Below, in pieces: positions 3,778 through 15,516 of a stretch of 64,000 bases of DNA (positions are counted from its first letter, which is position 1; every line of letters starts with the position of its first letter). This DNA is from a virus. The stretch is from IMG/VR virus record IMGVR_UViG_3300045988_168437; one strand, written 5' to 3'. A model generated the notes under the pieces. That model did no database searches, was not told the DNA's origin, and worked only from the letters and a program-made list of their open reading frames with translations. Position numbers and translations under genes: made by a program.

Positions 3778-3805
3778 ATTATTACCTCCAATATGTTTTT
3801 CTTTA

Positions 3806-3834
3806 ATAGTAGCACATATAATTTTTATTTGCAA
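3806..3834 (-). promoter_or_regulatory. parMR promoter candidate
   Basis: On the minus strand: TTGCAA (3834-3829), 17 nt spacer, TACTAT (3811-3806). Confidence 0.55.
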
Positions 3835-3846
3835 TAATTTTTTGTT

Positions 3847-3974
3847 AATATATCGTTAATTTTTCATTAGTGTTTAAAAATATATTAATATATCATTGAG
3901 AAACAATTAATATCTTGTGAATATATCATTAACATTCCTGATGCACTATATTTTTCTGTGAATATATCATTAGT
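3847..3974. repeat. parC-like centromere: four direct repeats of (G)AATATATC(A/G)TTA
   Basis: Copies start at about 3847, 3887, 3920 and 3961, spaced 33-41 bp apart, immediately upstream of the parMR promoter. Confidence 0.65.
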
Positions 3975-4185
3975 AAACCATGAGTATATAACTGACACTC
4001 TCTATACAAGATTTAGAGCGTTTTGTTTTTCTTCCCTTTGTAATTTATCAATATTATTATAATCAAACTCTTAGAATGGCTCTGACGGGGTTGTATAGTA
4101 AGTATGTAAACATTCTATTTTTCATATAGATTTTGCCGTCTTTAAATTATGAATTTTATAATATAATTTCTTGCATTTTTTATTT

Positions 4186-4330
4186 GGAGATTTGGGATTA
4201 GGAGGAGATGTGTGGGGTTTTATTGAGTGTTGGAGGGGTGATTTTGTAGTGTGTCTGCTGCGTAAACAACTGTTGTCGCCTGCCTGAAATACTCGGAAAA
4301 AATTTCCTAAAACTGGGGGGTGGGGGGATA
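4186..4330. other. G-rich (plus-strand) island in an AT-rich desert; candidate ncRNA or DNA structural site
   Basis: Contains GGAGGAG, GTGGGG, GGAGGGG and GGGGGGTGGGGGG (4315-4327), plus the palindrome ACAACTGTTGT. No ORF. Confidence 0.3.
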
Positions 4331-4451
4331 AATTCTATATAATAATTATATTATATCTACTATTTGAAAATAGGAGCATGATTTTTAAAAAAGGCTACTG
4401 GGAGAGGTTCTAAAATTTTACTTGCATTTTTTACGGTGAATAATTGAAAAA

Positions 4452-4553
4452 TTGCAATTGTTTATAAATTGCAAGCCCTTACATTTTTTCGTCAATTTGC
4501 TTAAATCGTCTGACAATTTACTACAATTGCATAATCCCTCATTAAACTTGCAA
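4452..4553. repeat. cluster of TTGCAA / CAATTGCA motifs
   Basis: At least four copies (4452, 4469, 4524, 4548) within about 100 bp. Confidence 0.5.
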
Positions 4554-4957
4554 TTCGACTCCAAAGTTTCATTAATAAAAAAATATAATAATATTTAATA
4601 ATTTATTTAAAAAATAATCCCTTTATTGTCTGAAATTCCATATAATTTTATTATATAACTTTATTGATTTTATGATATAATATAGACAATATAATATATT
4701 ATTTTTACATTTATTCATAGAATTAAAATACTAATGTATTATACTATTATAATTTATAATTAAATATTAAACAATAACTCATATTATATAATATAGTGTC
4801 GAATACATATAACATTTATTAAAAACAGTAACAGTCCATATGGCTTTTTAAAGCCTTTGCATTCCCTTCCTAATACCTTTATACTTTTAAAGCTTTAAAC
4901 TCTTTATAAGCTTAATAACAGGTTATTAGCCTTATAACCTATAATTTACTATTTATA

Positions 4958-5084
4958 AACAAATAGTTTACTAATACTATACTTTAAAAAAAATTAGTAT
5001 TTATATACTAAAAGTTTACTAATACTATACTAAAATAAGTTTAATATTTTTAAACAAATAGTTTACTAATACTATACTTTAAAC
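4958..5084. repeat. iterons: three copies of AGTTTACTAATACTATAC
   Basis: Copies at 4965-4982, 5013-5030 and 5060-5077 (47-48 bp spacing), with a degenerate fourth copy near 5098-5130. Flanked by an extremely AT-rich tract at 4560-4800. Confidence 0.7.
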
Positions 5085-5696
5085 AAGTATATTTATATTA
5101 AACAAATAGTATATAAATATTAAACTTTAAAATTAGGTTTTTTACCTTCTAAAATCCAGTTTAAAAAGCCTATTTTATAAAGGTATAAAAGTACTATATA
5201 TATATTTAGAGTACTTTTATATTGTCAATTAAGGAATATATAACAGGCTTTTTTATCCCTGTTATATTATATCTAACAACTAACTGGTAAAAGATTATAT
5301 ATTAATAGAGGGGATATTATAACCTTGTAACCTGTTATATAGATAATACTAGATATTTACAACTGGATAACTGGATAATAGATTAACACTAGTTAATAAC
5401 TAGTACTCTATATAAGAATATAATAGCCTTATGCTTTATTAATAATATAAATTATCCATAAGCTATATAAAACCTCTTACATTGGCAATACGGGGATATT
5501 TTAGCCTATACAGTATTTTCAGGAATATATAACCATACCATATAAATTTATTTTTATGGATAAATAAAGTTTTTTAAGAAATATTATTTTTATTATTGAA
5601 ATATTAAACTAGATAGTATACTATTAAAGTATCTTAATTGATAAAACATCTTATATTAATAGCTTAAAACTTTTTTAAAAACTTTTTATAAAGTAG

Positions 5697-5725
5697 TTGA
5701 CAATATAAAGTATATAAGCTACAAT
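5697..5725 (+). promoter_or_regulatory. sigma-70-type promoter
   Basis: TTGACA, 17 nt spacer, TACAAT. Confidence 0.65.
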
Positions 5726-5796
5726 ATAAGAAACAGTACTTTTAATATATTAGTTAACAGGCTTTAAAAAAAGTTTAAAAACTTTTAAAAAAGTAG

Positions 5797-5825
5797 TTGA
5801 CAAGTGATTAAAAAAGTACTATACT
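5797..5825 (+). promoter_or_regulatory. sigma-70-type promoter (tandem copy exactly 100 bp downstream of the previous one)
   Basis: TTGACA, 17 nt spacer, TATACT. The upstream AAAACTTTT...AAGTAGTTGACA context is duplicated. Confidence 0.65.
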
Positions 5826-5891
5826 TAAATTAATAAATGAGTTGATAGTTTTACACTAAAAACTTATTTATTACATATTAACCATAGGAAG

Positions 5892-5921
5892 TTGACTTAT
5901 TCAACTACTATACTTTATAAT
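5892..5921 (+). promoter_or_regulatory. sigma-70-type promoter
   Basis: TTGACT, 18 nt spacer, TATAAT. Confidence 0.55.
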
Positions 5922-6189
5922 AAAGGGGACTAGTAAAGTATTAGTTATCTTATATCCTCACCTAAACAACTTGTAGCTTTATAACTTGTACGGTAAAATA
6001 GAATATTCGACAACTTTGGAAAATCCTTCAATATACCGACTACTCTTTATGTAGTAGCTCATTCTAGTATATTAAAAGCCTGTATCTTGAAGTGCTTAAG
6101 AGTGCTTGGAGTTAGGAGTGTAAGAGTAACAACTCTTTGGATTAAGAATAAATTTTTATCTTTAACCTTTTAACCCTTTTTAAAGGTTT

Positions 6190-6220
6190 GGGGGATACCT
6201 GTTTAAAATCCCCTGTTTTA
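6190..6220 (+). terminator. hairpin plus U-tract in the operon leader (possible attenuator)
   Basis: GGGGAT (6191-6196) pairs with ATCCCC (6208-6213), followed by TGTTTTAAAATT. Confidence 0.3.
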
Positions 6221-6292
6221 AAATTAATCTTTGGGTATAAGGTGACAACTTTATACTCAAATACTAGTTTTAAAATAAAAGGGGGATATAAA

Positions 6293-6496
6293 ATGATAAA
6301 TTTAAGAAAAAAACCAGTAGAGACTAAAAATTATAGTGTGCAATTAAACAAAAACGATAGCTTACTATTTAAAGCATTCTTAAAAGGACTTGGAGCAACA
6401 TATGAAACAAGTGCTTGTTATGAGAAAATCCATTTTGAATTAACTTTAAATCGTATGGAATTAGGCAAAGTTGCTAGTTTTTTAAATGAATTATAA
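6293..6496 (+). CDS. small hypothetical protein (67 aa)
   Basis: The ATG at 6293 follows AAAAGGGGGATATAAA. The track ORF from 6188 uses an unlikely upstream TTG. Confidence 0.6.
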   Translation: MINLRKKPVETKNYSVQLNKNDSLLFKAFLKGLGATYETSACYEKIHFELTLNRMELGKVASFLNEL

Positions 6497-6504
6497 TTAT
6501 TCAA

Positions 6505-6521
6505 GGGACTTTAAAAGTCCC
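6505..6521 (+). other. conserved hairpin 5 nt upstream of the HDV-like cleavage site
   Basis: GGGACTTTAAAAGTCCC. Confidence 0.7.
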
Positions 6522-6526
6522 TATAT

Positions 6527-6587
6527 GGTTCTAGTGATTGATAACCTTCTCGTGGTGGGACTGAATTCGACTAATTTCAATCAATCA
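6527..6587 (+). ncRNA. HDV-like self-cleaving ribozyme candidate A
   Basis: P1 GGUUCUA (6527-33) pairs with UGGGACU (6556-62), starting with a G1-U wobble. P2 UGAUUGAU/AUCAAUCA. P3-L3 CC-UUCUCGU-GG, then GA (P1.1), then GACUAA (J4/2 C candidate). Predicted cut 6526|6527. Confidence 0.75.
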
Positions 6588-6613
6588 AATTTTGGATAAA
6601 AGGGGATAAAAAA

Positions 6614-6928
6614 ATGAAAAAATTAAATTTAAGTGGTGGTTTTCAAGTTTGGGCAACAACTGACTATATTCCAAAAATTGGTCATATTTTGATAACTTTA
6701 GACAATGAACCTATTCCAAGCAATCCAAGTGCATGGGATAAAAATTGTCGTATTTATAAGATAGTTAACAACTTTGAAGACTATGAAATTGATGAAATTT
6801 TAGAAAATCAAGAAATTTCTTTAGATTTAATTTTACCTATTCGATTTTATGTAGACTTTAATAAAATTGATAGCAATAACTTTAAAATCATAGTCAATCG
6901 AGCTTTAAAACACTTAAACAGGGATTAA
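6614..6928 (+). CDS. hypothetical protein (104 aa)
   Basis: ORF track. AAAAGGGGATAAAAAA precedes the ATG. Confidence 0.7.
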   Translation: MKKLNLSGGFQVWATTDYIPKIGHILITLDNEPIPSNPSAWDKNCRIYKIVNNFEDYEIDEILENQEISLDLILPIRFYVDFNKIDSNNFKIIVNRALKHLNRD

Positions 6929-6936
6929 TAAATCCC
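6921..6936 (+). other. hairpin upstream of the HDV-like cleavage site (overlaps the stop codon)
   Basis: GGGATTAATAAATCCC. Confidence 0.6.
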
Positions 6937-6941
6937 TTCAT

Positions 6942-6994
6942 GGTAGCAAGAGTCAACCTCCCCGTGGTGCTACTGGATAATCAACTAATGACTC
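6942..6994 (+). ncRNA. HDV-like self-cleaving ribozyme candidate B (minimal, no P4)
   Basis: P1 GGUAGCA/UGCUACU (7 bp, G1-U wobble). P2 GAGUCA/UGACUC. P3-L3 CC-UCCCCGU-GG, GG after P1 (P1.1), and CUAA just before the P2 3' strand. Predicted cut 6941|6942. Confidence 0.8.
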
Positions 6995-7023
6995 AAATAT
7001 AATAATGTAAAGGGGATAAAAAG

Positions 7024-7362
7024 ATGTTAAAAGAAAAATTAAACCAAATTAAAGAAAATTCAGAAGGGATTAAACTATTTGTAATTGACGATATTTTAGA
7101 ATTCAACGAAAGTGATGACGAAATAACAGGTTATGTAAATGATGTATTAAATTATGGTTGTTCTAGTGGTTGTGTATCAAGTTTGATTTATTATAGTGAT
7201 ACAGACAAATTTTTTACAAAATATCATGATGAAATACTTGAAATGTTAGAAGACTTTAAAAATGAATGTGATATAAACTTTGAAATTAATTCAAATAACC
7301 TTGCATGGTTTGGATATGAAGAGACTTTAAGATGTTTAGCAAGTGAATTAGGTATTTGGTAA
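7024..7362 (+). CDS. acidic hypothetical protein (112 aa)
   Basis: ORF track with AAAGGGGATAAAAAG SD context. Confidence 0.7.
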   Translation: MLKEKLNQIKENSEGIKLFVIDDILEFNESDDEITGYVNDVLNYGCSSGCVSSLIYYSDTDKFFTKYHDEILEMLEDFKNECDINFEINSNNLAWFGYEETLRCLASELGIW

Positions 7363-7368
7363 AATGAA

Positions 7369-7385
7369 GGGACTTTTAAAGTCCC
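7369..7385 (+). other. conserved hairpin upstream of the HDV-like cleavage site
   Basis: GGGACTTTTAAAGTCCC. Confidence 0.7.
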
Positions 7386-7390
7386 TAAAT

Positions 7391-7451
7391 GATAGCAAGA
7401 GTTTACCTCCCCGTGGTGCTATTGGAAACAAGGGAACTTGGCTAAAAACTC
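7391..7451 (+). ncRNA. HDV-like self-cleaving ribozyme candidate C
   Basis: P1 GAUAGCA/UGCUAUU. P2 GAGUUU/AAACUC. CC-UCCCCGU-GG, then GG. P4 CAAG-GGAA-CUUG, then GCUAA. Predicted cut 7390|7391. Confidence 0.8.
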
Positions 7452-7479
7452 AAATTTTAGATAAAAGGGGATAAAAAAG

Positions 7480-8028
7480 ATGAAAAATTTAGTAAACTTA
7501 AACGATTTCGAAATAAACAGAGAGAGTGCAAAAATGATGCTTGAAAACAATAGTGAGTTTAGAATGACACTTGAAAATAGTGCTTTTGATAACGAATGTT
7601 TTTATATCAAAGAAGAATATTTAGATTTATTACCTACTGTAAAATATAATATAGATTTCTGTAAAACAAGTTTAAGCATAGGGAATAGTGATGTATACGA
7701 TTTACTTTATGATATAATTTCAGAGTCCGAAACATGGATAGCACACCTTGATGATGTTGAAATTCTTATGCAAAAGATGGAAACTTTCAGAAACATGATG
7801 GGAAATATTGCGGGATATAGTTATCAATATGAAAGACTTGAAAATCGAGCTACTAAACTAATAGAAGAGTTTTTGGAAATCCTTGAAAAACATCTTGAAA
7901 GCATAATTGATGGGATTAATGATGACTATATTGTAGATGATATTCTTAATTCGTGTTTTGATGAAATTTGGAGTGGAATATATATCAATCCTAAGACTTT
8001 TGAATTATACGAGTTAAAACATCTATAA
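7480..8028 (+). CDS. acidic hypothetical protein, paralogue of 9857-10411
   Basis: Shares LVNL(N/S)DFE(I/L)NRE(S/N)AKM(M/I)LENNSEFR and the C-terminal IYINPKT..LYELKHL with ORF 9857. Confidence 0.75.
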   Translation: MKNLVNLNDFEINRESAKMMLENNSEFRMTLENSAFDNECFYIKEEYLDLLPTVKYNIDFCKTSLSIGNSDVYDLLYDIISESETWIAHLDDVEILMQKMETFRNMMGNIAGYSYQYERLENRATKLIEEFLEILEKHLESIIDGINDDYIVDDILNSCFDEIWSGIYINPKTFELYELKHL

Positions 8029-8033
8029 AAATG

Positions 8034-8115
8034 AAGGCGAAATTCGAAACAAGGACCACGGTCCTTGTCTGTAAGTAATGAGTTGCTTATACTGACGAGA
8101 TAGCTCGAGCCTTAC
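8034..8115 (+). ncRNA. type II hammerhead ribozyme candidate HH1
   Basis: C-GAAAC; stem III AAGGACC/GGUCCUU; GUC cut site (8069|8070); stem I UGUAAG/CUUAUA; CUGACGAG. Loop I GAGUU pairs with downstream AGCUC. Closing helix AAGGC/GCCUU. Confidence 0.8.
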
Positions 8116-8141
8116 AAATAAATAAAAAGGGGATAAAAAAG

Positions 8142-8315
8142 ATGAAAAAAAGTGTAAAAATCATGGTAGTTTCAGGAATATTAGTAATAGGAATGATGGT
8201 ATTTCATAAACCATTAACCTTAAAAGCTATGGATTTAGTAGATTATTACGGAGAAAAAACTGGTAAAAATGTTGTAGAAATGATAGACTTTTTAAATGAA
8301 GTTTATTATCTATAA
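8142..8315 (+). CDS. small membrane protein (57 aa, below the ORF-track cutoff)
   Basis: ATG follows AAAAGGGGATAAAAAAG. Reads MKKSVKIMVVSGILVIGMMVFHK... (hydrophobic N-terminus). Flanked by HH1 and HDV-D. Confidence 0.55.
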   Translation: MKKSVKIMVVSGILVIGMMVFHKPLTLKAMDLVDYYGEKTGKNVVEMIDFLNEVYYL

Positions 8316-8321
8316 ATGATA

Positions 8322-8338
8322 GGGACTTTAGAAGTCCC
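8322..8338 (+). other. conserved hairpin upstream of the HDV-like cleavage site
   Basis: GGGACTTTAGAAGTCCC. Confidence 0.7.
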
Positions 8339-8342
8339 GTAT

Positions 8343-8403
8343 GGTTCTAGTTGTTGGTAGCCTTCCCGTGGCGGAACTGAATTCGACTAATTTTAACCAA
8401 CAA
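8343..8403 (+). ncRNA. HDV-like self-cleaving ribozyme candidate D
   Basis: P1 GGUUCU/GGAACU. P2 UUGUUGGU/ACCAACAA, which covaries with copy A. P3-L3 GCC-UUCCCGU-GGC, then GA, then GACUAA. Predicted cut 8342|8343. Confidence 0.75.
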
Positions 8404-8426
8404 AAATGATAGTAAAGGGGATAAAG

Positions 8427-8909
8427 ATGATGATAAAAAGATTACCAGAAACAAGTTTAATGACTATTAAGGCAATGATAAGAGAATATAGCGAAGTTGA
8501 GACAATAGTTATTAATGAAGTGGATAACTACTGGAATGATAGATGTAAGCAAATATATCAAGCTCCAGGGACTTCTTTAGAAGTCGATATATATCAAGGT
8601 ACTTGTAAAATCAATATCCATGATAGAGAATTGATGGTAAGAAGTTTATATGATGAAGCGAATAAATCAACAGATAGTGTATTTCTTGACTCTGAGCGTC
8701 ATTGTATACAAGGTATGTATGCTCATAGAAAAGATGATATGTTTGAAATTTATTTAAAAGCATACATTAGATGTATTGAAGAATATATCTCTAATATGCA
8801 GCATGTATTTGACAAATATTCTCTAGCAACTTGGATACAAAATCATCCTGACAACTTCAACAAGTGGGCAGTAGATGAAGACACTTGCGAATTTTTCAGA
8901 ATGATATAA
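8427..8909 (+). CDS. hypothetical protein
   Basis: Start moved to the ATGATG at 8427, after AAAGGGGATAAAG. The track start at 8406 lies just after the ribozyme and lacks an SD. Confidence 0.7.
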   Translation: MMIKRLPETSLMTIKAMIREYSEVETIVINEVDNYWNDRCKQIYQAPGTSLEVDIYQGTCKINIHDRELMVRSLYDEANKSTDSVFLDSERHCIQGMYAHRKDDMFEIYLKAYIRCIEEYISNMQHVFDKYSLATWIQNHPDNFNKWAVDEDTCEFFRMI

Positions 8910-8914
8910 ATGAT

Positions 8915-8931
8915 GGGACTTTTAAAGTCCC
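8915..8931 (+). other. conserved hairpin upstream of the HDV-like cleavage site
   Basis: GGGACTTTTAAAGTCCC. Confidence 0.7.
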
Positions 8932-8936
8932 TATAT

Positions 8937-8999
8937 GGTAGTAATTGGTTCGCCTCCACGTGGCACTACTGGAAACGAGTTTACTCGGCTAAGAGTCAA
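8937..8999 (+). ncRNA. HDV-like self-cleaving ribozyme candidate E
   Basis: P1 GGUAGU/ACUACU. P3-L3 GCC-UCCACGU-GGC, then GG. P4 CGAG-UUUA-CUCG, then GCUAAG. P2 UUGGUU/AGUCAA (two G-U pairs). Predicted cut 8936|8937. Confidence 0.7.
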
Positions 9000-9018
9000 A
9001 AAAGAAGGGATAAAAAAG

Positions 9019-9339
9019 ATGATAAAAAAGATTGAAGAAAAAATTAAAGAATTGGGTTTCGTTGTAGGTTGTTACAACGATAAAATTGATGACATTTTAA
9101 CTCCAGGAGCAGCTCGTAAAGTTTGTGGGTTACTAGAAGAAGAATACACAGACGAATTGATGCGAATTAGAGGTAAACTATATAAAGTCTGTATAGCAAC
9201 TGTTGACGATGAAAAAGATATCAATATATATCATGCATTAGACTATTATAGACAATACGGAGAAGAACATCTGGATAATGACTATGAAGAAAAAATGATG
9301 ACATTAAAGGAATATAGAGCATTGAAAAAGATGGTATAA
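9019..9339 (+). CDS. hypothetical protein (106 aa)
   Basis: Start moved to the ATG at 9019, after AGAAGGGATAAAAAAG. The track start at 8935 lies inside the ribozyme. Confidence 0.7.
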   Translation: MIKKIEEKIKELGFVVGCYNDKIDDILTPGAARKVCGLLEEEYTDELMRIRGKLYKVCIATVDDEKDINIYHALDYYRQYGEEHLDNDYEEKMMTLKEYRALKKMV

Positions 9340-9340
9340 A

Positions 9341-9430
9341 ACAAATTCGAAACAAAGGACCATGGAGTAATTCATGGTCCTTTGTCTGTAAGCAATAGGC
9401 TACTTATACTGACGAGATAGCCTGTTGCTA
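9341..9430 (+). ncRNA. type II hammerhead ribozyme candidate HH2
   Basis: UUCGAAAC; stem III AAAGGACCAUG/CAUGGUCCUUU; GUC (cut 9386|9387); stem I UGUAAG/CUUAUA; CUGACGAG. Loop I CAAUAGGCUA pairs with downstream UAGCCUGUUG. Confidence 0.8.
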
Positions 9431-9456
9431 AAAATGATGATAAAAAGGGGATAAGA

Positions 9457-9744
9457 ATGATGAGAGAACATGCAATATATAAAGATTATATCAGATATAT
9501 AGGAGATGGATTTAATTTTTCAGAATTATATTCATATGAAGATGGTAAAGAATTACATTTCAATAAATTTATGGATTATTGGGAAGACTCTAAAACTGGT
9601 AGATTTTATCGTTGGAAAAATTCAAAAGATGATAAAATTATAAAGGAATGTCATGAAGAAACACTTGATTATTTTGGATTTAAATCTAGTCGACTAAATG
9701 ATGATAAAGAATCTTTAAAAGATGAAGAATATCTACCATTCTAA
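9457..9744 (+). CDS. hypothetical protein (95 aa)
   Basis: ORF track with AAAAGGGGATAAGA SD context. Confidence 0.7.
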   Translation: MMREHAIYKDYIRYIGDGFNFSELYSYEDGKELHFNKFMDYWEDSKTGRFYRWKNSKDDKIIKECHEETLDYFGFKSSRLNDDKESLKDEEYLPF

Positions 9745-9746
9745 TG

Positions 9747-9829
9747 AAGGTAATAAATTCGAAACAAGGACTAAGGTCCTTGTCTGTAAATGATAGGCTC
9801 TTTATACTGACGAGATAGCCTATTACCTT
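9747..9829 (+). ncRNA. type II hammerhead ribozyme candidate HH3
   Basis: Closing helix AAGGUAAU/AUUACCUU; UUCGAAAC; stem III AAGGAC/GUCCUU; GUC (cut 9784|9785); stem I UGUAAA/UUUAUA; CUGACGAG. Loop I AUAGGCU pairs with downstream AGCCUAU. Confidence 0.85.
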
Positions 9830-9856
9830 TACAATAGAAATGAAAGGGGATTAAAG

Positions 9857-10411
9857 ATGATGATGGGAAAATTAGTAAACTTAAGTGACTTTGAATTAAA
9901 TAGAGAAAATGCAAAAATGATACTTGAAAACAATAGTGAGTTTAGACAAGTTTTAATTGATGAATTATTTGAAAATGAAATTGATTATTATTGTTCAGAA
10001 ATATTAGAAAAAATACCTGAAATAAGTTGGAATATCAATTATTCAGATGTTAGAATATGGACTAAGTTTGGTTCTAATGTTATTAACATAATTGAAGGTA
10101 TATTTGATATTGACGAATATCTTACAGAAAACTGTAATATCATAATCAGTAAATTAAAAGTTTATCATAAATATCTGACTACTTGTTGTCAATATGATAA
10201 TAGATGGGATAGATTAATTGCTAGAACTGAAAAATTAGTTGACGATTTATTGAATGAACTTGAGCAAATGATAGGAACATATTTAGAAGCGATTAACGAT
10301 GATGATGACGAAATAATCGAATATTGTATAAGTTCAATGGAAGGGATTATATGTTCTACAATTTATATAAATCCTAAAACATTAGATTTATACGAATTAA
10401 AGCATTTATAA
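9857..10411 (+). CDS. acidic hypothetical protein, paralogue of 7480-8028
   Basis: See the 7480 entry. AAAGGGGATTAAAG SD context. Confidence 0.75.
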   Translation: MMMGKLVNLSDFELNRENAKMILENNSEFRQVLIDELFENEIDYYCSEILEKIPEISWNINYSDVRIWTKFGSNVINIIEGIFDIDEYLTENCNIIISKLKVYHKYLTTCCQYDNRWDRLIARTEKLVDDLLNELEQMIGTYLEAINDDDDEIIEYCISSMEGIICSTIYINPKTLDLYELKHL

Positions 10412-10413
10412 TA

Positions 10414-10442
10414 TTGACAGTTTTACACAAAAGTGATACTAT
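10414..10442 (+). promoter_or_regulatory. internal sigma-70-type promoter
   Basis: TTGACA, 17 nt spacer, TACTAT. Confidence 0.6.
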
Positions 10443-10448
10443 TAAATC

Positions 10449-10530
10449 AAGGGGAGTAATCCCCTTCCTAATGCAGTAGCTAAAAGCTAGAGGTCGCAAC
10501 TCCTCATAAAACATATGCAGAGCGGGAAAA
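10449..10530 (+). ncRNA. unclassified structured leader (three hairpins) in a slot otherwise occupied by ribozymes
   Basis: AAGGGGA-GUAA-UCCCCUU, UAGCU-AAA-AGCUA, and GAGG-UCGCAACU-CCUC. I cannot match it to a known core. Confidence 0.3.
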
Positions 10531-10545
10531 TGAAAGGGGATAAAG

Positions 10546-10992
10546 ATGATGAAAATAAAAGAATTATATGAAAACATTAGTAACTGTTTAGATTGGATTA
10601 AAATCAACAATAGTGACTTAAAAGACATATTTGAAGGTGCTAAAGCATTAAGAAGAGGAATTCAAGTCTTAGAATATGATAAAGCAATGATAGGTAAAAT
10701 TGATGATAACTATTTTATTTCAGATTTTATTATGAATATTCTTAAAAAGAATCTTCCAGAGTATCAATTAAGTTTAGGCATAATTGACGATGTTTTAGAA
10801 GAACTAGACATAGATGATGATACTTTAGAAGAATTAGATGAAAGCGAATTTGAAAATCATGTTATAATCAAAAATACTTTCGTAGATGTAAAAGAAGCAA
10901 TTTCTTTTGATGATTACTGGGATTTACCAGATTTTGATAGTCTTTTAAAAATGTTTGAATTTGCAAAAGAAGAAATTGGTTACTTATTATAA
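10546..10992 (+). CDS. very acidic hypothetical protein (148 aa)
   Basis: ORF track with AAAGGGGATAAAG SD context. Confidence 0.7.
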   Translation: MMKIKELYENISNCLDWIKINNSDLKDIFEGAKALRRGIQVLEYDKAMIGKIDDNYFISDFIMNILKKNLPEYQLSLGIIDDVLEELDIDDDTLEELDESEFENHVIIKNTFVDVKEAISFDDYWDLPDFDSLLKMFEFAKEEIGYLL

Positions 10993-11082
10993 GTTTAAAT
11001 TCGAAACAGGTAGTACAGGAAATCCTGTATTGCTTGTCTGTAAGTAATAGGCTACTTATACTGACGAGATAGCCTGAACTTA
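10990..11082 (+). ncRNA. type II hammerhead ribozyme candidate HH4
   Basis: Closing helix UAAGUU/AACUUA; UUCGAAAC; 12-bp stem III AGGUAGUACAGG/CCUGUAUUGCUU; GUC (cut 11038|11039); UGUAAG/CUUAUA; CUGACGAG. Loop I AGGCUA pairs with UAGCCU. Confidence 0.8.
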
Positions 11083-11110
11083 TAAATATGATGATAAAAA
11101 GGGGATAAAG

Positions 11111-11557
11111 ATGATGGCAAAGAGAATTGATATAGTAAGATGTAAAATGGTAAAGGAAAGTTCAGTTAAGTATGAAAAAAGAGTGATAACATCACCTTTT
11201 GATGGCTATATAATAGTAAAAGATTTTCTTGAAGACTTAGACAGAGAACAAGTGATGATGCTTTGTTTAAATAGTAAAAATGAACCTACAAACTTATCTG
11301 TTATAAGTATGGGGACTGTAAATAGTTCATTGATACATCCAAGAGAAGTATTTAAAATAGCAATACTTTCAAATGCTAGTAAAATCATGTTGGCACATAA
11401 TCATCCATCAGGAAATCCAAGTCCTTCTCATGAAGATGAATTAATGACAAAGAGAATCAAAGATTGTGGAGATATGATGGGAATTCAATTATTGGACCAT
11501 ATAATTGTAGGCGATAACACTTATTATAGTTTTAAAGAAAATAATTCAATATTATAA
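11111..11557 (+). CDS. radC: RadC-like JAB/MPN-domain protein
   Basis: HNHPSGNPSPSHED (JAMM-like H-x-H-P-S-G...S-x-x-D motif typical of RadC/DUF2466). 148 aa. Confidence 0.8.
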   Translation: MMAKRIDIVRCKMVKESSVKYEKRVITSPFDGYIIVKDFLEDLDREQVMMLCLNSKNEPTNLSVISMGTVNSSLIHPREVFKIAILSNASKIMLAHNHPSGNPSPSHEDELMTKRIKDCGDMMGIQLLDHIIVGDNTYYSFKENNSIL

Positions 11558-11565
11558 TATTTTAC

Positions 11566-11594
11566 TTGTTATCTTTATACAAAAATGATATAAT
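11566..11594 (+). promoter_or_regulatory. internal sigma-70-type promoter immediately upstream of HDV-like ribozyme F
   Basis: TTGTTA, 17 nt spacer, TATAAT. The predicted TSS is near 11601. Confidence 0.55.
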
Positions 11595-11610
11595 AAGGAT
11601 AGCAAGATAT

Positions 11611-11674
11611 GACGGCAAAGGTTCTTCCTCCCCGTGGTGTCGTCGGGAACTCCTAACAGGTGCTAAATAGAACC
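11611..11674 (+). ncRNA. HDV-like self-cleaving ribozyme candidate F
   Basis: P1 GACGGCA/UGUCGUC. P2 GGUUCU/AGAACC. CC-UCCCCGU-GG, then GG. P4 CUCCU-AAC-AGGUG, then GCUAA. Predicted cut 11610|11611. Confidence 0.75.
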
Positions 11675-11695
11675 AAAAATGAAAGGGGAATAAAG

Positions 11696-12082
11696 ATGAT
11701 GAAAGAATTAAAAAGACTAAATCAAATTGATTTAACAGAAAATCAAACAAAAAAACTCTTAAATAATGATATTTTTAAGGAAAGTGTCATAGACAAACTT
11801 GCTAGTTATTTTAATCATTGTATTTATGAAAAATATGTACTTAATCATATAATTCATTTTGAATGTGAATACAATACAAAAACAAATTTCTTTAAATATA
11901 AAATAGTTGAAGAGAATGATAAAAATCAAGAAGTTTTGGATAACTTAAAAAACGATATAAATAACTATTATCAATATTTGCAAGATAAAAATAGCCTTAA
12001 AGAGAATATAAAAGTCATCGTAAAGAGATTAGATGATAATTATTATGTTGATAATGATTTTAATGTTTATAAAGTTATTTAG
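11696..12082 (+). CDS. hypothetical protein
   Basis: Start moved to the ATGATG at 11696, after AAAGGGGAATAAAG. The track start at 11660 lies inside the ribozyme. Confidence 0.7.
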   Translation: MMKELKRLNQIDLTENQTKKLLNNDIFKESVIDKLASYFNHCIYEKYVLNHIIHFECEYNTKTNFFKYKIVEENDKNQEVLDNLKNDINNYYQYLQDKNSLKENIKVIVKRLDDNYYVDNDFNVYKVI

Positions 12083-12091
12083 GAGGTAAAA

Positions 12092-12358
12092 ATGATGAAA
12101 ACTTTAAATCAAATTGAATGGAAAAATCTGTTAAAAAATATGGATACAGAAGAAGGCAGACAAGAGTTTATAAGCAGAGTACCATCTGGAATATATGGTG
12201 GTAAAAATGAAGACGGAGAAGAAGTTATAACAGTTGTATCTCAAGGATTTGGGATGACAATAAAGACTAAACATCATGAGAAACCAAACTGGTGGGAATG
12301 TGTTGATTATGATGAACTTGGCTGCATGGAATGTGTAACATATGAAAGAGCAGATTAA
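12092..12358 (+). CDS. hypothetical protein (88 aa)
   Basis: ORF track with AGGAGGT SD. Confidence 0.7.
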   Translation: MMKTLNQIEWKNLLKNMDTEEGRQEFISRVPSGIYGGKNEDGEEVITVVSQGFGMTIKTKHHEKPNWWECVDYDELGCMECVTYERAD

Positions 12359-12361
12359 TTA

Positions 12362-12454
12362 GAAGGATAAATTCGAAACAGGTAGAATGAGGCAACTCAT
12401 TTTACTTGTCTATAAGGTTAAGCTACTTATACTGACGAGATAGCTTAATCCTTC
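12362..12454 (+). ncRNA. type II hammerhead ribozyme candidate HH5
   Basis: Closing helix GAAGGAU/AUCCUUC; UUCGAAAC; 12-bp stem III; GUC (cut 12410|12411); stem I UAUAAG/CUUAUA; CUGACGAG. Loop I UUAAGCUA pairs with UAGCUUAA, which covaries relative to the other copies. Confidence 0.85.
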
Positions 12455-12476
12455 AAAATGAAAGGGGATAAAAAAG

Positions 12477-13004
12477 ATGATGAAAAGAGAAAATGTTGTG
12501 AAATTTTTAGATTTATTACGTTCTGATGAAGTTAATGACGAAATAAAAGATTTATATATTGAACTATTAGAAGGACATATTCAAGATGCTCCAGGAACTC
12601 AAATTGAAATTATATTAGACTTAGACGGAGAAATTGATGAAAGATACTTTGTAGGAAATTCAACTAGAATGGATGTATATGAAGGCGATGCAATAGTTGT
12701 AGCAAGTATCAGATATGATGCAAACGTTACTTATGAAGACATGGGAGAATTATCAGATGCTTTAGATGAATCTGAATATGAAAAATTCGTAGAATGGATA
12801 TTTGCATACGAAGATATATCAGAAGATGATGAAAAAGAATATTTCGAAGAAAACTTTACATGGGAAAATTTTTCAGAATTTAATCCTGATAGATTTAAAG
12901 AGCTAGAAGAAGAATCTTGGCAAGCAAATGTTGATTATTACGGATATGAAGAAATTGGGCAAAAATTATCTGAATGTATACAACAATTAGAAACTTTATT
13001 ATAG
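12477..13004 (+). CDS. extremely acidic hypothetical protein (175 aa); DNA-mimic-like composition
   Basis: ORF track with long D/E-rich runs. No motif recognised. Confidence 0.7.
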   Translation: MMKRENVVKFLDLLRSDEVNDEIKDLYIELLEGHIQDAPGTQIEIILDLDGEIDERYFVGNSTRMDVYEGDAIVVASIRYDANVTYEDMGELSDALDESEYEKFVEWIFAYEDISEDDEKEYFEENFTWENFSEFNPDRFKELEEESWQANVDYYGYEEIGQKLSECIQQLETLL

Positions 13005-13020
13005 GGGCAGCAATTGCTCC

Positions 13021-13080
13021 TACTTTAAACCTACCAATGATGGTCCAAAGTCCATATGGAAAAAGGTGATGGGAGTAAAT
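13021..13080 (+). ncRNA. twister ribozyme candidate (type P1) Tw1
   Basis: UACU-U-U|AA; P2 ACCU/AGGU; ACC-AAU-G; P4 AUGG/CCAU with loop UCCAAAGU; A-rich strand; GAU-GGG-AGUA. Same block order as canonical twister. Predicted cut 13026|13027. Preceded by hairpin 13006-13020. Confidence 0.7.
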
Positions 13081-13141
13081 AAAGGCGAAGCTACTAAAAT
13101 ACTCGTCTATATATAAGAGTAGCAATTAAAAGGGGGTAAAA

Positions 13142-13456
13142 ATGAAGGTATATTTAGGGAATGCTTTTAGTTTACAAATGTTAGACACAACAAAGACTAC
13201 AGATATAAAAGTAACACCAGTTGATGCATCAGTTGTAGCAAGTTCAGATTTTACATCAGTTATAGGTCATCCAGATACAGCTGCAGTAGTTTCAAACATC
13301 TTAGGAAAAGACGTAGCTTGTAATAGAGTTTCTGTTAGTTTAAGTAAAGGTGACATTTTATATGTAGCACAAGTTGTTGGTGGCAGACTTCCTGCTGGAG
13401 CTACCACTCTACCAGACGGATTTAGTTTAGTATTTTTAAAAGTTGTCATTCTATAA
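13142..13456 (+). CDS. DUF1874 / STIV-B116-like protein (family assignment from memory)
   Basis: 104 aa. MKVYLGNAFSLQML...SVIGHPDTAAVVSNILG...ILYVAQ resembles that family. Confidence 0.45.
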   Translation: MKVYLGNAFSLQMLDTTKTTDIKVTPVDASVVASSDFTSVIGHPDTAAVVSNILGKDVACNRVSVSLSKGDILYVAQVVGGRLPAGATTLPDGFSLVFLKVVIL

Positions 13457-13521
13457 AAAGGTAGAAGGCTTATAGGAGTGTCTCAAACTCCTACATTATG
13501 TAAATGAAGGGAGAATTAAAA

Positions 13522-13659
13522 ATGAAAGTTAAAAAAGAAATTACAATTGAAGAAGAATTTGAAATACATATGAAAAGCATGGAAGGGCATGTTTGCTATG
13601 GTTGCTCAGGTTGTAAGTTTGCTTACTATGGAGTTTGCCCATATGTTCAAGAGGGTTAA
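13522..13659 (+). CDS. small Cys-rich protein (45 aa, below the ORF-track cutoff)
   Basis: ATG follows GAAGGGAG. Reads MKVKKEITIEEEFEIHMKSMEGHVCYGCSGCKFAYYGVCPYVQEG. Confidence 0.4.
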   Translation: MKVKKEITIEEEFEIHMKSMEGHVCYGCSGCKFAYYGVCPYVQEG

Positions 13660-13665
13660 TCCCTC

Positions 13666-13730
13666 TACTTTAAACTCACTTGACTAAGTCAAAAGGTCCA
13701 AAGTCCTTGAAAAGAGTGATGGGAGTAAAT
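13666..13730 (+). ncRNA. twister ribozyme candidate (type P1, with P3 insert) Tw2
   Basis: Same conserved blocks as Tw1. P2 ACUC/GAGU and P4 AAGG/CCUU both covary. An extra hairpin UGAC-UAA-GUCA sits at the optional-P3 position. Predicted cut 13671|13672. Preceded by hairpin GAGGG-UUAAU-CCCUC. Confidence 0.7.
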
Positions 13731-13747
13731 GAAAGGGGTAAAATGAT

Positions 13748-14023
13748 ATGAATAATTCTATTAAAAGATTAAAAGAAAAATTAATTGGAAAAGAATTCAA
13801 AGAAGAAGATTATAATAAAGAGTTAAATAATCTTGTAAAAGAATTTCATTTAGAGGCAAATACTTGTGATTTTGATTTTGACAGATTATATCACATTGGA
13901 TATGAAGAAAAAGAAAATTGGGATGATGAATATGTTTGTAGTATACAAGTTAATTATATTCCTGTATATGATGAAAATGGATATCATGACTTTGATATCA
14001 TAAAAATATTTGATGTGTTTTAA
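13748..14023 (+). CDS. hypothetical protein (91 aa)
   Basis: ORF track with AAAGGGGTAAAATG context. Confidence 0.65.
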   Translation: MNNSIKRLKEKLIGKEFKEEDYNKELNNLVKEFHLEANTCDFDFDRLYHIGYEEKENWDDEYVCSIQVNYIPVYDENGYHDFDIIKIFDVF

Positions 14024-14053
14024 TATAATTAAATCATATAGGGAGGTATGAAA

Positions 14054-14221
14054 ATGAGAACTTACTTAGCAGATTATGAAGACGATAATTTTGAAACAAT
14101 AATAGCGAATACAGATAATGAAGCTTACTTTGAAGCTCTTGACCATGAAGAAGAACATGGGACTTTATATAATCTTTTTGAAATTGATGATGACTACAAT
14201 AAAATAAGAGAAGTTAAATAG
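14054..14221 (+). CDS. small acidic protein (55 aa, below the ORF-track cutoff)
   Basis: ATG sits 7 nt after GGGAGGT. Reads MRTYLADYEDDNFETIIANTDNEAYFEALDHEEEHG... and its stop abuts HH6. Confidence 0.5.
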   Translation: MRTYLADYEDDNFETIIANTDNEAYFEALDHEEEHGTLYNLFEIDDDYNKIREVK

Positions 14222-14296
14222 AAGGCAAAATTCGAAACCGTGGTGGTCCACGGTCTGTAAGCAATAGGCTACTTATACTGACGAGATAGCCTTGCC
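14221..14296 (+). ncRNA. type II hammerhead ribozyme candidate HH6
   Basis: Closing helix GGCAA/UUGCC; UUCGAAAC; stem III CGUGG/CCACG; GUC (cut 14255|14256); UGUAAG/CUUAUA; CUGACGAG. Loop I AGGCUA pairs with UAGCCU. Confidence 0.8.
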
Positions 14297-14426
14297 AACA
14301 ATAAAAAGGAAGGTAAGATAAAATAGCTATCAAGAACTCGTGAAAACGGGTGTTGAATAAATTATCATTTTGGGAGAGGGTTGCCCTCTCCTATCCCCAA
14401 TATAAATGGGAGAGAGGAGTATAATA

Positions 14427-14777: not shown

Positions 14778-14786
14778 TATATATAA

Positions 14787-14814
14787 TAATCCCCTGATTG
14801 GGGGTTATTTTTTT
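14787..14814 (+). terminator. rho-independent terminator closing the ribozyme operon
   Basis: TAATCCCC-TGATT-GGGGGTTA followed by TTTTTTT. Confidence 0.75.
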
Positions 14815-14847
14815 GCTTAAAAATAATTTATTTTTTACAGAAATCAC

Positions 14848-14876
14848 TTGCAAGTTTTATATCAAAATGCTATAAT
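14848..14876 (+). promoter_or_regulatory. sigma-70-type promoter with extended -10
   Basis: TTGCAA, 17 nt spacer, (TGc)TATAAT. About 45 bp is near-identical to the promoter at 30329. Confidence 0.7.
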
Positions 14877-14898
14877 TAAATCAAAGGCGGTGAATAAT

Positions 14899-15189: not shown

Positions 15190-15190
15190 T

Positions 15191-15511: not shown

Positions 15512-15516
15512 AAAGG

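What the first reader, a model, noticed from the sequence alone, without database searches (positions are those of the whole stretch)
6527..11674. Six HDV-like (nested double-pseudoknot) ribozyme candidates with compensatory changes in P1, P2 and P4
All six copies share the order P1(5') - P2(5') - CC/GCC - U(U/C)C(C/U/A)CGU - GG/GGC - P1(3') - G(G/A) - [optional hairpin] - (G/A)CUAA - P2(3'). This is the HDV topology P1-P2-P3/L3-P1'-P1.1-P4-J4/2-P2'.

- The P3/L3 block CCUCCCCGUGG closely resembles genomic HDV GCCUCCUCGCUGGC (recalled from memory).
- P1 is 6-7 bp and begins with G. In five of six copies that G pairs with U, as in HDV-like ribozymes.
- Helix sequences differ between copies but stay complementary. 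Examples for P1: GGUAGCA/UGCUACU, GAUAGCA/UGCUAUU, GACGGCA/UGUCGUC. Examples for P2: GAGUCA/UGACUC, UUGUUGGU/ACCAACAA, GGUUCU/AGAACC. Examples for P4: CAAG/CUUG, CGAG/CUCG.
- Copies A and D have GA instead of GG after P1 and correspondingly UUC.. in L3, which is compatible with a covarying P1.1.

Bacterial and phage HDV-like ribozymes are rare in the literature.
Basis: partly seen in the sequence, partly recalled or inferred. Interest (0 to 1): 0.85.

Follow-up and report, generated by a model that had tools for sequence, protein, structure and literature searches.

The report
Six catalogued phage HDV-like self-cleaving ribozymes
The six elements are genuine HDV-like self-cleaving ribozymes sitting between small genes of a roughly 140 kb gut phage, but five of them are already listed for this very genome in a 2024 paper, so the find is real but not new.

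Summary
All six copies (G1 at 6527, 6942, 7391, 8343, 8937, 11611; + strand) have the full HDV-like double-pseudoknot layout.

- **More than chance:** the P3/L3 core occurs exactly six times in the window, against 0.42 expected.
- **Independent detection:** a covariance model built only from unrelated viral contigs recovers five copies at E ≤ 0.004. Copy F scores weakly.
- **Family support:** in viral contigs, 76% of core matches have a complementary P1 starting at G1, against 12% for shuffles and 13% in bacterial genomes.

The find is not new. Kienbeck et al. 2024 (PMC10879173, Supplementary Data File 4) list copies A–E for MGV-GENOME-0374641. Their coordinates are offset from mine by exactly 64000. 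Copy B is also their theta ribozyme 1808. Phage HDV-like ribozymes now number in the thousands.

None of the six is next to a tRNA. They occupy intergenic linkers of one ~9 kb operon of 19 small genes. The operon also carries six type II hammerheads and three twisters at equivalent positions.

The most likely role, which is inferred, is cutting the long transcript into single-gene mRNAs. Each upstream piece would end in a hairpin. Each downstream piece would start with a 5'-OH ribozyme fold ahead of its ribosome-binding site.

The parts
6527..6586 (+). HDV-like ribozyme A, minimal (no P4). P1 GGUUCUA/UGGGACU; L3 UUCUCGU; P1.1 GA; J4/2 CUAA. P2 is AUUGAUA/UUUCAAU (ends 6581) or UGAUUGAU/AUCAAUCA.
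   Evidence: R1 model 38.3 bits, E 3.9e-5. Listed as MGV-GENOME-0374641:70527-70581 in PMC10879173 Suppl. Data File 4.
6942..6995 (+). HDV-like ribozyme B, minimal. P1 GGUAGCA/UGCUACU; L3 UCCCCGU; P1.1 GG; P2 GAGUCA/UGACUC.
   Evidence: R1 56.2 bits, E 2e-8. Identical to theta ribozyme no. 1808 and to MGV-GENOME-0374641:70942-70995.
7391..7452 (+). HDV-like ribozyme C with short P4 (CAAG-GGAA-CUUG). P1 GAUAGCA/UGCUAUU; P2 GAGUUU/AAACUC.
   Evidence: R1 30.8 bits, E 9e-4. RF02682 24.3 bits. Listed at 71391-71452.
8343..8403 (+). HDV-like ribozyme D, minimal. P1 GGUUCU/GGAACU; P3 GCC/GGC; L3 UUCCCGU; P1.1 GA. P2 is GUUGGUA/UUUUAAC or UUGUUGGU/ACCAACAA.
   Evidence: R1 40.8 bits, E 1.4e-5. Listed at 72343-72397.
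8937..8999 (+). HDV-like ribozyme E with P4 (CGAG-UUUA-CUCG). P1 GGUAGU/ACUACU; P3 GCC/GGC; P2 UUGGUUC/GAGUCAA.
   Evidence: RF02682 40.2 bits against gathering 44, E 6e-4. R1 27.4 bits, E 0.004. Listed at 72937-72999.
11611..11674 (+). HDV-like ribozyme F with imperfect P4. P1 GACGGCA/UGUCGUC (G1-C); P3 only CC/GG; P2 GGUUCU/AGAACC. This is the weakest copy.
   Evidence: R1 only 11.8 bits, E 2.7. RF00094 22.3 bits, E 9.6. Not among the five published entries held. Conserved in four relatives, with only a P4-loop change in L240.
6504..6522 (+). Hairpin (GGGAC..GUCCC type) ending 4 nt 5' of the cleavage site of A. Equivalent hairpins lie at 6920-6937 (B), 7368-7386 (C), 8322-8338 (D) and 8915-8931 (E). 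F has none.
   Evidence: RNAfold of the 40 nt upstream of each G1. Across the family, 66% of unique members have a stable structure ending 8 nt or less from the site, against 15% at control positions.
5697..5921 (+). Three strong sigma-70-like promoters (11 of 12 matches each), the likely start of the operon transcript.
   Evidence: Consensus matches only.
14785..14809 (+). The only strong + strand intrinsic-terminator-like site downstream of the promoters; the likely end of the operon.
8045..8099 (+). Type II hammerhead at an equivalent intergenic position. Five more lie at 9348-9416, 9760-9814, 11002-11068, 12374-12439 and 14233-14285.
   Evidence: Invariant CGAAAC..GUC..CUGACGAG core, covarying stem III, and a loop I / 3' tail pseudoknot. 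Matches the description in PMC3088659. No Rfam hit at E 10 or below.
10465..10528 (+). Twister (type P1) at an equivalent intergenic position. Two more lie at 13022-13076 and 13667-13726.
   Evidence: RF03160 scores 35.9, 34.4 and 46.6 bits, all below the gathering score of 67.2; E 6e-5 to 5e-8 in the 9.2 kb search.

Best explanation
The six elements are cis-acting HDV-like (delta-like) self-cleaving ribozymes. A, B and D are the minimal P4-less type. C, E and F carry a short P4. They lie in the intergenic linkers of one ~9 kb, 19-gene, + strand operon, which runs from promoters near 5.7-5.9 kb to a terminator near 14.8 kb. The operon belongs to a ~140 kb human-gut phage or phage-plasmid, MGV-GENOME-0374641.

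Each ribozyme starts 14-30 nt (A-E) after the stop codon of the gene before it; F starts about 53 nt after. Each ends 19-29 nt before the start codon of the next gene.

**Shown at sequence level only:**
- the fold;
- the G1 cleavage-site geometry;
- the catalytic-position C;
- homology to family members that have been shown to cleave.

**Inferred:**
- As the operon is transcribed, each ribozyme cuts 5' of its G1.
- The upstream mRNA ends in a stable hairpin, then 4-5 nt, then a 2',3'-cyclic phosphate.
- The downstream mRNA begins with a 5'-OH on the compact ribozyme fold, followed by AAAGGGGAUAAA (the ribosome-binding site) and AUG.
- Together with six type II hammerheads and three twisters at equivalent junctions, this chops the polycistronic transcript into mono- or dicistronic mRNAs. 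Stability and translation of each cassette then become independent.
- Three unrelated ribozyme classes are used interchangeably, which suggests the selected activity is simply to cut here.
For: - **Motif count.** Six core matches against 0.42 expected.
- **Complete helices.** P1, P2, P1.1, a J4/2 C and U at -1 are present in all six.
- **Unbiased family test.** Of 124 core matches, 94 have P1 of 6 or more pairs starting at G1, against 12% for shuffles. Of those 94, 82 have P2 of 5 or more, against 21%. The same pattern in bacterial genome contigs gives 13%, which is null level.
- **Covariation.** Five P1 pairs and six P2 pairs covary.
- **P1.1 link.** L3 UCC goes with GG in 92 of 92 cases. L3 UUC goes with GU 33 times, GA 9, GG 1 and GC 0.
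- **Independent models.** R1, built without window sequences, finds A-E at E 2e-8 to 0.004 and nothing else convincing. RF02682 scores E at 40.2 bits.
- **Published listing.** A-E are in the published minimal-drz list, and B is theta ribozyme 1808.
- **Activity in the family.** Family members cleave in vitro, and cleavage is abolished by changing the C to U (PMC10879173).
- **Compensatory changes in relatives.** Sister contigs show GGUAGC/GCUACU against GGUAAC/GUUACU. A related genome shows P4 CGAG/CUCG against CAAG/CUUG.
- **Operon context.** There are 15 ribozymes in 18 junctions, one promoter cluster and one terminator.
- **Upstream hairpins.** Present 4-5 nt before G1 in A-E.
- **Precedent.** Clustered hammerheads flank single genes in prophages and cleave in vitro and in vivo (PMC3088659).
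Against: - No cleavage data exist for these six copies.
- None reaches an Rfam gathering score.
- F is weak: R1 gives E 2.7, it has G1-C, a 2-bp P3, and no covariation among its orthologues.
- The covariation alignments A2 and A3 were pre-selected for pairing, so only one search is unbiased.
- The processing role is inferred from position alone.
- In Firmicutes, RNase J1 can degrade 5'-OH ends (known for glmS; my own knowledge). Protection by the 5' fold is therefore an assumption.
- The host is unknown.
Confidence: 0.8

Rival explanations
1. The ribozymes cleave conditionally and act as switches. Cleavage efficiency would respond to a metabolite, a protein, Mg2+ or the upstream fold. It would then tune expression of individual downstream cassettes, rather than process the transcript constitutively.
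For: - The F. prausnitzii relative is reported to be modulated by GlcN6P (cited in PMC6765202).
- The upstream hairpins could gate folding.
- A and D have two alternative P2 registers.
Against: - No ligand-binding extension is present, and three copies are the minimal form.
- Three unrelated ribozyme classes occupy equivalent sites, which argues for a class-independent activity.
- The downstream genes are unrelated small ORFs.
Confidence: 0.12
2. The main selected role is at DNA level. The conserved ribozyme-plus-RBS linkers would serve as homology patches for recombination that shuffles gene cassettes between related phages. RNA cleavage would be secondary.
For: Sister contigs L239-L243 carry the same operon with different cassette content. 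Homology breakpoints fall in or next to ribozymes and ribosome-binding sites: 6599-6633, 8437-8439, 8973, 9378, 10554, 11033, 11676 and 14296. A 10-nt fragment of copy C's 5' end lies just upstream of F.
Against: - Any viable indel must break between genes, so this enrichment is expected anyway.
- Strand-specific compensatory changes in P1, P2 and P4, together with the conserved catalytic C, show selection on the RNA fold.
- The helices differ between copies, so they offer little DNA homology.
Confidence: 0.06
3. The elements are structured RNAs of HDV-like shape that no longer cleave. They would be decayed copies, or serve as binding sites for a protein or RNase.
For: No copy reaches an Rfam gathering score. 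F is divergent.
Against: - Every position known to be needed for catalysis is intact in all six.
- B is identical to a sequence seen 74 times in public metagenomes.
- The copies are conserved across relatives, with compensatory changes.
Confidence: 0.04
4. They are theta ribozymes in the narrow sense, trimming the 3' ends of phage tRNAs.
For: The minimal architecture of A, B and D matches theta ribozymes.
Against: ARAGORN finds no tRNA anywhere in the window. Upstream of each G1 lies a protein-gene stop codon and a simple hairpin.
Confidence: 0.01

Closest known systems
Minimal HDV-like ribozymes and theta ribozymes of gut phages (Riccitelli et al. 2014, as cited by Kienbeck et al. 2024, PMC10879173)
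   Same: - The same P3/L3 core (A/G)CC-U(C/U)C-NCGU-GG(U/C).
- A 6-7 bp P1 starting at G1.
- P1.1 GG or GA, and J4/2 CUAA.
- P4 absent or short.
- The host is a gut Caudoviricetes genome.
- A-E are in their Supplementary Data File 4 for this genome, and B is their no. 1808.
   Different: - None is tRNA-adjacent. They belong to the 'isolated' class, whose function that paper leaves open.
- C, E and F carry a 4-bp P4.
- F is not among the five entries held for this genome.
- That paper does not mention hammerheads, so the mixed-class array is not described there.
drz-Fpra-1, Rfam RF02682 (HDV ribozyme from Faecalibacterium prausnitzii)
   Same: E and C align over the full model, with CCUC.ACGUGG, GG.AAC-P4-GGCUAAGA and P1 in register.
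   Different: - The scores of 40.2 and 24.3 bits are below the gathering score of 44.
- P1, J1/2 and P4 are shorter.
- They are not upstream of glmM.
Genomic HDV ribozyme (Rfam RF00094)
   Same: The same nested double-pseudoknot topology, a G1-U wobble, a C-rich L3 pairing with GG (P1.1), and a catalytic C in J4/2.
   Different: - Only F gives any hit, at 22.3 bits and E 9.6.
- P2 and P4 are far shorter.
- The elements are encoded in DNA in a phage operon, not in a circular RNA replicon.
Clustered hammerhead ribozymes flanking single genes in prophages (Perreault et al. 2011, PMC3088659)
   Same: - The same arrangement: ribozymes between individual small genes of a long phage transcript.
- The same proposed processing into single-gene mRNAs.
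- This window carries six such type II hammerheads in the same operon.
   Different: - A different catalytic fold.
- Here three classes are mixed: six HDV-like, six hammerhead and three twister within 9 kb.

Membership tests
HDV-like (delta-like) self-cleaving ribozymes | Nested double-pseudoknot order: P1 5' - P2 5' - P3/L3 - P1 3' - P1.1 - (P4) - J4/2 - P2 3'. | tested here: met
   All six copies. Family-wide P1 and P2 pairing is far above shuffles. Covariation is shown.
HDV-like (delta-like) self-cleaving ribozymes | The cleavage site lies immediately 5' of G1, which closes P1, usually as a G-U wobble. | tested here: met
   G1 is present in 6 of 6 copies. It pairs with U in A-E and with C in F. 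Position -1 is U in all. In the family, G1 occurs in 93 of 94 and G-U in 76 of 94.
HDV-like (delta-like) self-cleaving ribozymes | A two-pair P1.1 between L3 and the two bases after P1. | tested here: met
   CC/GG in B, C, E and F; UC/GA in A and D. Family-wide, UCC goes only with GG, and UUC goes with GU, GA or GG but never GC.
HDV-like (delta-like) self-cleaving ribozymes | A catalytic cytosine at the first position of J4/2. | tested here: met
   C of CUAA is present in all six. My search patterns required this C, so its conservation across the family was not tested here. The published decoy control is in PMC10879173.
HDV-like (delta-like) self-cleaving ribozymes | Mg2+-dependent self-scission that is lost when the C is changed to U. 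| not testable with these tools
   Shown for four other family members in PMC10879173, but not for these copies.
Rfam HDV families (RF02682, RF00094) | A score at or above the curated gathering threshold. | tested here: not met
   There is no hit at gathering level. Below it: E 40.2 and C 24.3 bits against 44, and F 22.3 against 50. A, B and D get no hit at E 10 or below.
Minimal drz / theta ribozymes (Kienbeck 2024) | A match to the authors' RNArobo descriptor. | tested here: met
   A-E appear in Supplementary Data File 4 at window coordinates plus 64000. B also appears in Data File 2 as no. 1808. F is not among the five entries held.
Minimal drz / theta ribozymes (Kienbeck 2024) | tRNA association: the cleavage site lies within 5 nt of a tRNA 3' end. 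| tested here: not met
   The window has no tRNA genes. These copies are of the 'isolated' kind.
drz-Fpra-1 type | A location in the 5' UTR of glmM. | tested here: not met
   The downstream genes are small ORFs with no Pfam or PHROG function, except DUF7222.

The most novel reading that the evidence does not exclude
The operon is a 'ribozyme-punctuated cassette array'. Nineteen small early or anti-defence-type genes (RadC-like, DUF7222, STIV B116-like and unknowns) are each delimited by one of three interchangeable self-cleaving ribozyme classes. Cleavage would give every cassette its own hairpin-ended, 5'-OH, ribozyme-capped mRNA. The ribozyme-plus-RBS linkers would double as joints where cassettes are swapped between related ~140 kb gut phage-plasmids. 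On this reading, HDV-like ribozymes in phages are general mRNA punctuation marks rather than tRNA processors.
Probability: 0.3. Interest if true: 0.6.

Novelty: already known. Interest (0 to 1): 0.27.

Why it matters
As a discovery it adds little. The ribozyme class, its abundance in gut phages, and five of these six copies are already published.

Its value is as a model locus. What non-tRNA ('isolated') phage HDV-like ribozymes do is still an open question, and so is the role of bacterial self-cleaving ribozymes in general (PMC10879173; PMC6765202). This operon places 15 ribozymes of three classes at equivalent junctions of one transcript. Natural cassette variants exist in sister genomes. 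That makes the processing hypothesis, and the idea that the classes are interchangeable, testable in a single construct.

Tried and rejected
- **MAFFT on the six copies and on 32 sequences.** The P4-containing 3' halves were misaligned. I therefore used only columns 1-38 of A2, plus a minimal-only alignment (A3), for pair counts.
- **Rfam at gathering thresholds.** It found only RAGATH-18. The hammerheads get no Rfam hit even at E 10, so they are called from the sequence and from PMC3088659.
- **Megablast of the operon and the replication region** against phages and plasmids. No informative DNA match.
- **The search for related loci with ORF 7480-8028** in viral contigs. Nothing.
- **Exact copy D in genome contigs.** Nothing, so the host stays unidentified. 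The only host clue is a PolIII alpha at 35-38% identity to large Clostridioides and Geobacillus phages.
- **The general pattern in genome contigs.** Matches were almost all chance, which served as a negative control.
- **Long contiguous strings in the paper's supplements.** These failed because the entries are split by '|'. Searching by segment succeeded.
- **The tRNA-processing role.** Rejected.
- **A promoter just upstream of F (11566-11594).** Considered, but promoter-like hits are not enriched over shuffles (75 against 63.6), so I make no claim.
- **PMC4509812 (Weinberg 2015).** Not held. I could not check whether HDV-like ribozymes were already noted in twister/hammerhead gene neighbourhoods.

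Full report
**1. What is in the sequence.**

Reading 6000-12200 confirms six + strand elements. Their G1 positions are 6527 (A), 6942 (B), 7391 (C), 8343 (D), 8937 (E) and 11611 (F). Each has the same order of parts:
- a 6-7 nt P1 5' strand starting with G;
- a P2 5' strand;
- CC or GCC;
- a 7-nt loop U(C/U)CNCGU;
- GG or GGC;
- the P1 3' strand;
- GG or GA;
- an optional 4-bp hairpin;
- (A/G)CUAA;
- the P2 3' strand.

The core CCTYCNCGTGG occurs exactly six times in the 64 kb, all on the + strand and all between ORFs. Shuffles give 0.42 on average, and 0 of 100 reach six. A descriptor script found 6-7 contiguous P1 pairs and 6-8 P2 pairs in every copy. G1 pairs with U in A-E and with C in F. 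Position -1 is U in all six. P4 is CAAG-GGAA-CUUG in C, CGAG-UUUA-CUCG in E and imperfect in F. A, B and D have no P4.

**2. Is it more than chance, and is it a family?**

I scanned IMG/VR for the P3/L3..P1.1..CUAA pattern. This pattern says nothing about the P1 5' strand or about P2.
- Of 124 matches, 94 have at least 6 contiguous pairs between the 7 nt after P3 and a segment 5-25 nt upstream. Shuffling the 3' strand gives 12%.
- 93 of those 94 start with G, and 76 form G-U.
- 82 of the 94 also have a P2 of at least 5 pairs, against 21% for shuffled tails.
- The same pattern in 596 Gb of bacterial genome contigs gives 15 of 119 (13%) with P1 of 6 or more, which is null level. The pairing test therefore discriminates, and the family is essentially viral.

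Pair counts also support the fold. On 32 sequences (A2) and on 44 non-window sequences (A3), five P1 pairs and all six P2 pairs show changes on both sides. About 95% of cells are paired, against 27-54% when the partner is slid by 1-3 columns. These sequences were pre-selected for pairing, so one search is the unbiased test.

With L3 UCC, the two bases after P1 are GG in 92 of 92 cases. With L3 UUC they are GU (33), GA (9) or GG (1), and never GC, whereas unfolded background matches show GC 24, GA 17, GG 17 and GU 8. A and D are U-A compensated.

**3. Independent models.**

I built a covariance model (R1) from 44 viral-contig sequences with no window sequence included. I searched the whole window with filters off. 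It scores B at 56.2 bits (E 2e-8), D at 40.8, A at 38.3, C at 30.8 and E at 27.4 (E 0.004). F reaches only 11.8 bits (E 2.7). The next hit lacks P3/L3 altogether. So there are six copies and no more, and F is the least certain.

Rfam at gathering thresholds reports none of them. At E-value thresholds, RF02682 (HDV ribozyme from F. prausnitzii) aligns E end to end at 40.2 bits, against a gathering score of 44, and C at 24.3 bits. RF00094 touches F at 22.3 bits with E 9.6.

**4. It is already in the literature.**

Kienbeck et al. 2024 (PMC10879173) describe minimal HDV-like 'theta' ribozymes in gut Caudoviricetes. They report 9344 unique sequences in metagenomic reads. They show in vitro Mg2+-dependent cleavage that is abolished by changing the C to U. 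They also leave a large 'isolated' class, not next to tRNAs, with unknown function.

Their Supplementary Data File 2 lists, as ribozyme no. 1808 with 74 occurrences, a sequence identical to copy B.

Their Supplementary Data File 4 lists five hits for MGV-GENOME-0374641, at 70527-70581, 70942-70995, 71391-71452, 72343-72397 and 72937-72999. The sequences are identical to A-E. Every start equals the window coordinate plus 64000, so the window is that genome's 64001-128000. F is not among the five entries held.

**5. Context.**

The window has no tRNA, so the tRNA-trimming role does not apply here.

The genome is a large phage-like element. It encodes:
- DnaB;
- a DHH-family protein;
- a C5 DNA methylase;
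- PolIII alpha, at 35-38% identity to Clostridioides phiCD211-like and Geobacillus E3 phages;
- a beta-CASP protein;
- NrdD;
- an actin-like ALP;
- TnpB followed by RAGATH-18.

An exact-protein look-up found a 140,164 bp contig that is 100% identical over 5001-16000, plus sister contigs of 133-140 kb.

The six ribozymes lie in one + strand gene array. Three 11-of-12 promoter matches sit at 5697-5921. The only strong + strand terminator is at 14785-14809. In between are 19 small ORFs, nearly all preceded by AAAGGGGAUAAA. Most have no family match. The exceptions in the array are DUF7222, RadC-like JAB and STIV B116-like, and a GP17-like protein lies just beyond.

Of the 18 junctions, 15 hold a self-cleaving ribozyme:
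- the six HDV-like copies;
- six type II hammerheads, with an invariant CGAAAC..GUC..CUGACGAG core, a 2-bp stem II, covarying stem III, and a covarying pseudoknot between loop I and the 3' tail, exactly as Perreault et al. describe (PMC3088659);
- three type-P1 twisters, at 35.9, 34.4 and 46.6 bits.

**6. How it most likely works.**

Shown: the fold and the catalytic-position residues, at sequence level.

Inferred: each ribozyme cuts 5' of G1 during transcription.

A-E are preceded by a stable hairpin ending 4-5 nt before G1. Family-wide, 66% of members have such an upstream structure, against 15% at control positions. Each ribozyme ends 19-29 nt before the next AUG.

The products would be:
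- an upstream mRNA ending in a hairpin plus a 2',3'-cyclic phosphate;
- a downstream mRNA whose 5'-OH end is buried in the ribozyme fold, just ahead of its ribosome-binding site.

Hammerhead and twister cleavage at the other junctions also leaves hairpins on both products.

Perreault et al. showed that clustered prophage hammerheads cleave in vitro and in vivo. They proposed processing into single-gene mRNAs. [quoted passage not shown] This operon is an unusually dense, three-class example of that known arrangement.

An upstream hairpin may also insulate the ribozyme from misfolding with 5' sequence. This is known for the genomic HDV ribozyme (my own knowledge, not tested here).

**7. Variation among relatives.**

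Sister contigs carry the same operon with cassettes gained or lost. The ends of homology fall in or beside ribozymes and ribosome-binding sites.

Their ribozyme variants show compensatory changes. B's GGUAGC/GCUACU becomes GGUAAC/GUUACU. E's P4 CGAG/CUCG becomes CAAG/CUUG in MGV-GENOME-0374426.

At the junction homologous to E, the relatives have a P4-less ribozyme with a different but still complementary P1 and P2.

These changes support selection on the RNA fold. They also suggest, weakly, that the linkers are joints for cassette exchange. The caveat is that any viable indel must break between genes.

**8.

- P3 can be read as 3 bp (ACC/GGU or GCC/GGC) with a 6-bp P1, as in the published parse.
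- In A and D, P2 has two registers. The published register lies directly after CUAA: AUUGAUA/UUUCAAU and GUUGGUA/UUUUAAC, each with a U-U mismatch.
- The second register is 5 nt further 3': UGAUUGAU/AUCAAUCA and UUGUUGGU/ACCAACAA. It has three compensatory differences between A and D.
- I cannot decide between the two registers.

**9. Verdict.**

The elements are real, are more than chance, and were correctly interpreted as HDV-like ribozymes. As objects they are already known: A-E are catalogued, and F is a plausible extra member. Their function is inferred, not shown. Interest is low to moderate, and rests on the operon as a test bed for what non-tRNA phage ribozymes do.

Noticed in passing
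window 8045-8099, 9348-9416, 9760-9814, 11002-11068, 12374-12439, 14233-14285 (+): Six type II hammerhead ribozymes sit in the same operon. They have an invariant AAAUUCGAAAC..GUCU.UAA..UUAUACUGACGAGAUAGC core, a 2-bp stem II, covarying stem III, and a covarying pseudoknot between loop I and the 3' tail. Rfam gives no hit even at E 10.
   Followed up: partly
window 10465-10528, 13022-13076, 13667-13726 (+): Three type-P1 twister ribozymes lie at intergenic junctions. All score below Rfam's gathering score (35.9, 34.4 and 46.6 against 67.2 bits).
   Followed up: partly
window 5001-16000 against L239-L243: Sister contigs of 133-140 kb carry the same operon with cassettes gained or lost. Homology breakpoints fall at or inside ribozymes and ribosome-binding sites (6599-6633, 8437-8439, 8973, 9378, 10554, 11033, 11676, 14296). 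This hints that the linkers act as recombination joints.
   Followed up: partly
window 8900-9030 against L239:11965-12090: At the junction homologous to copy E, the relatives have a P4-less ribozyme (GG-AUAACCAA-CUAAC) with a compensated P1 and a different P2. This is a natural example of interconversion between P4-containing and minimal forms.
   Followed up: partly
window 11566-11610: Upstream of F there is no hairpin. Instead there is a promoter-like TTGTTA-17-TG-TATAAT, then GAUAGCAAGA, which equals the first 10 nt of copy C. This may be the scar of a truncated ribozyme. The promoter call is not significant on its own.
   Followed up: no
window 30446-31561 and 31615-31688 (+): A TnpB-like ORF (OrfB_IS605, Cas12f1-like TNB) is followed 54 nt later by a full-length RAGATH-18 RNA (67.6 bits, above gathering). 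This matches the reported pairing of TnpB with RAGATH-18-derived guide RNAs (PMC11061315).
   Followed up: no
window 6208-6287 (+): A long, near-perfect hairpin sits in the 5' leader of the first ORF (MFE -37.2 kcal/mol for 6180-6292, z -5.1). Its 3' arm contains that ORF's AAAAGGGGGAU ribosome-binding site, so translation of the first gene may be gated.
   Followed up: no
window 14286-14405 (+): A 120-nt linker lies after the last hammerhead. It has two strong hairpins (MFE -33.3, z -3.5) and no match to any Rfam family. Junctions 13077-13141 and 13457-13503 also lack a recognised ribozyme.
   Followed up: partly
window 3850-5950: An AT-rich non-coding stretch lies between a divergent actin-like (ALP_N) gene (2824-3834, - strand) and the operon. 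It holds an approximately 95-nt repeat unit in two copies (AAACAAATAGTTTACTAATACTATACTTTAAA at 4945-5126), short repeats TGTGAATATATCATTA at 3916 and 3957, and a duplicated promoter block (5664-5703 and 5764-5803). It may be a partition or replication control region.
   Followed up: no
window 7480-8028 and 9857-10411 (+): Two ORFs in the operon are paralogues (37% identity, E 3e-35) with no family match. One is followed by a hammerhead and the other by a twister.
   Followed up: partly
whole window: The window equals MGV-GENOME-0374641 positions 64001-128000. This follows from five published ribozyme coordinates that are all offset by exactly 64000. An ENA contig (ERZ27261314 k119_117257, 140,164 bp) is 100% identical over 11 kb.
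   Followed up: yes
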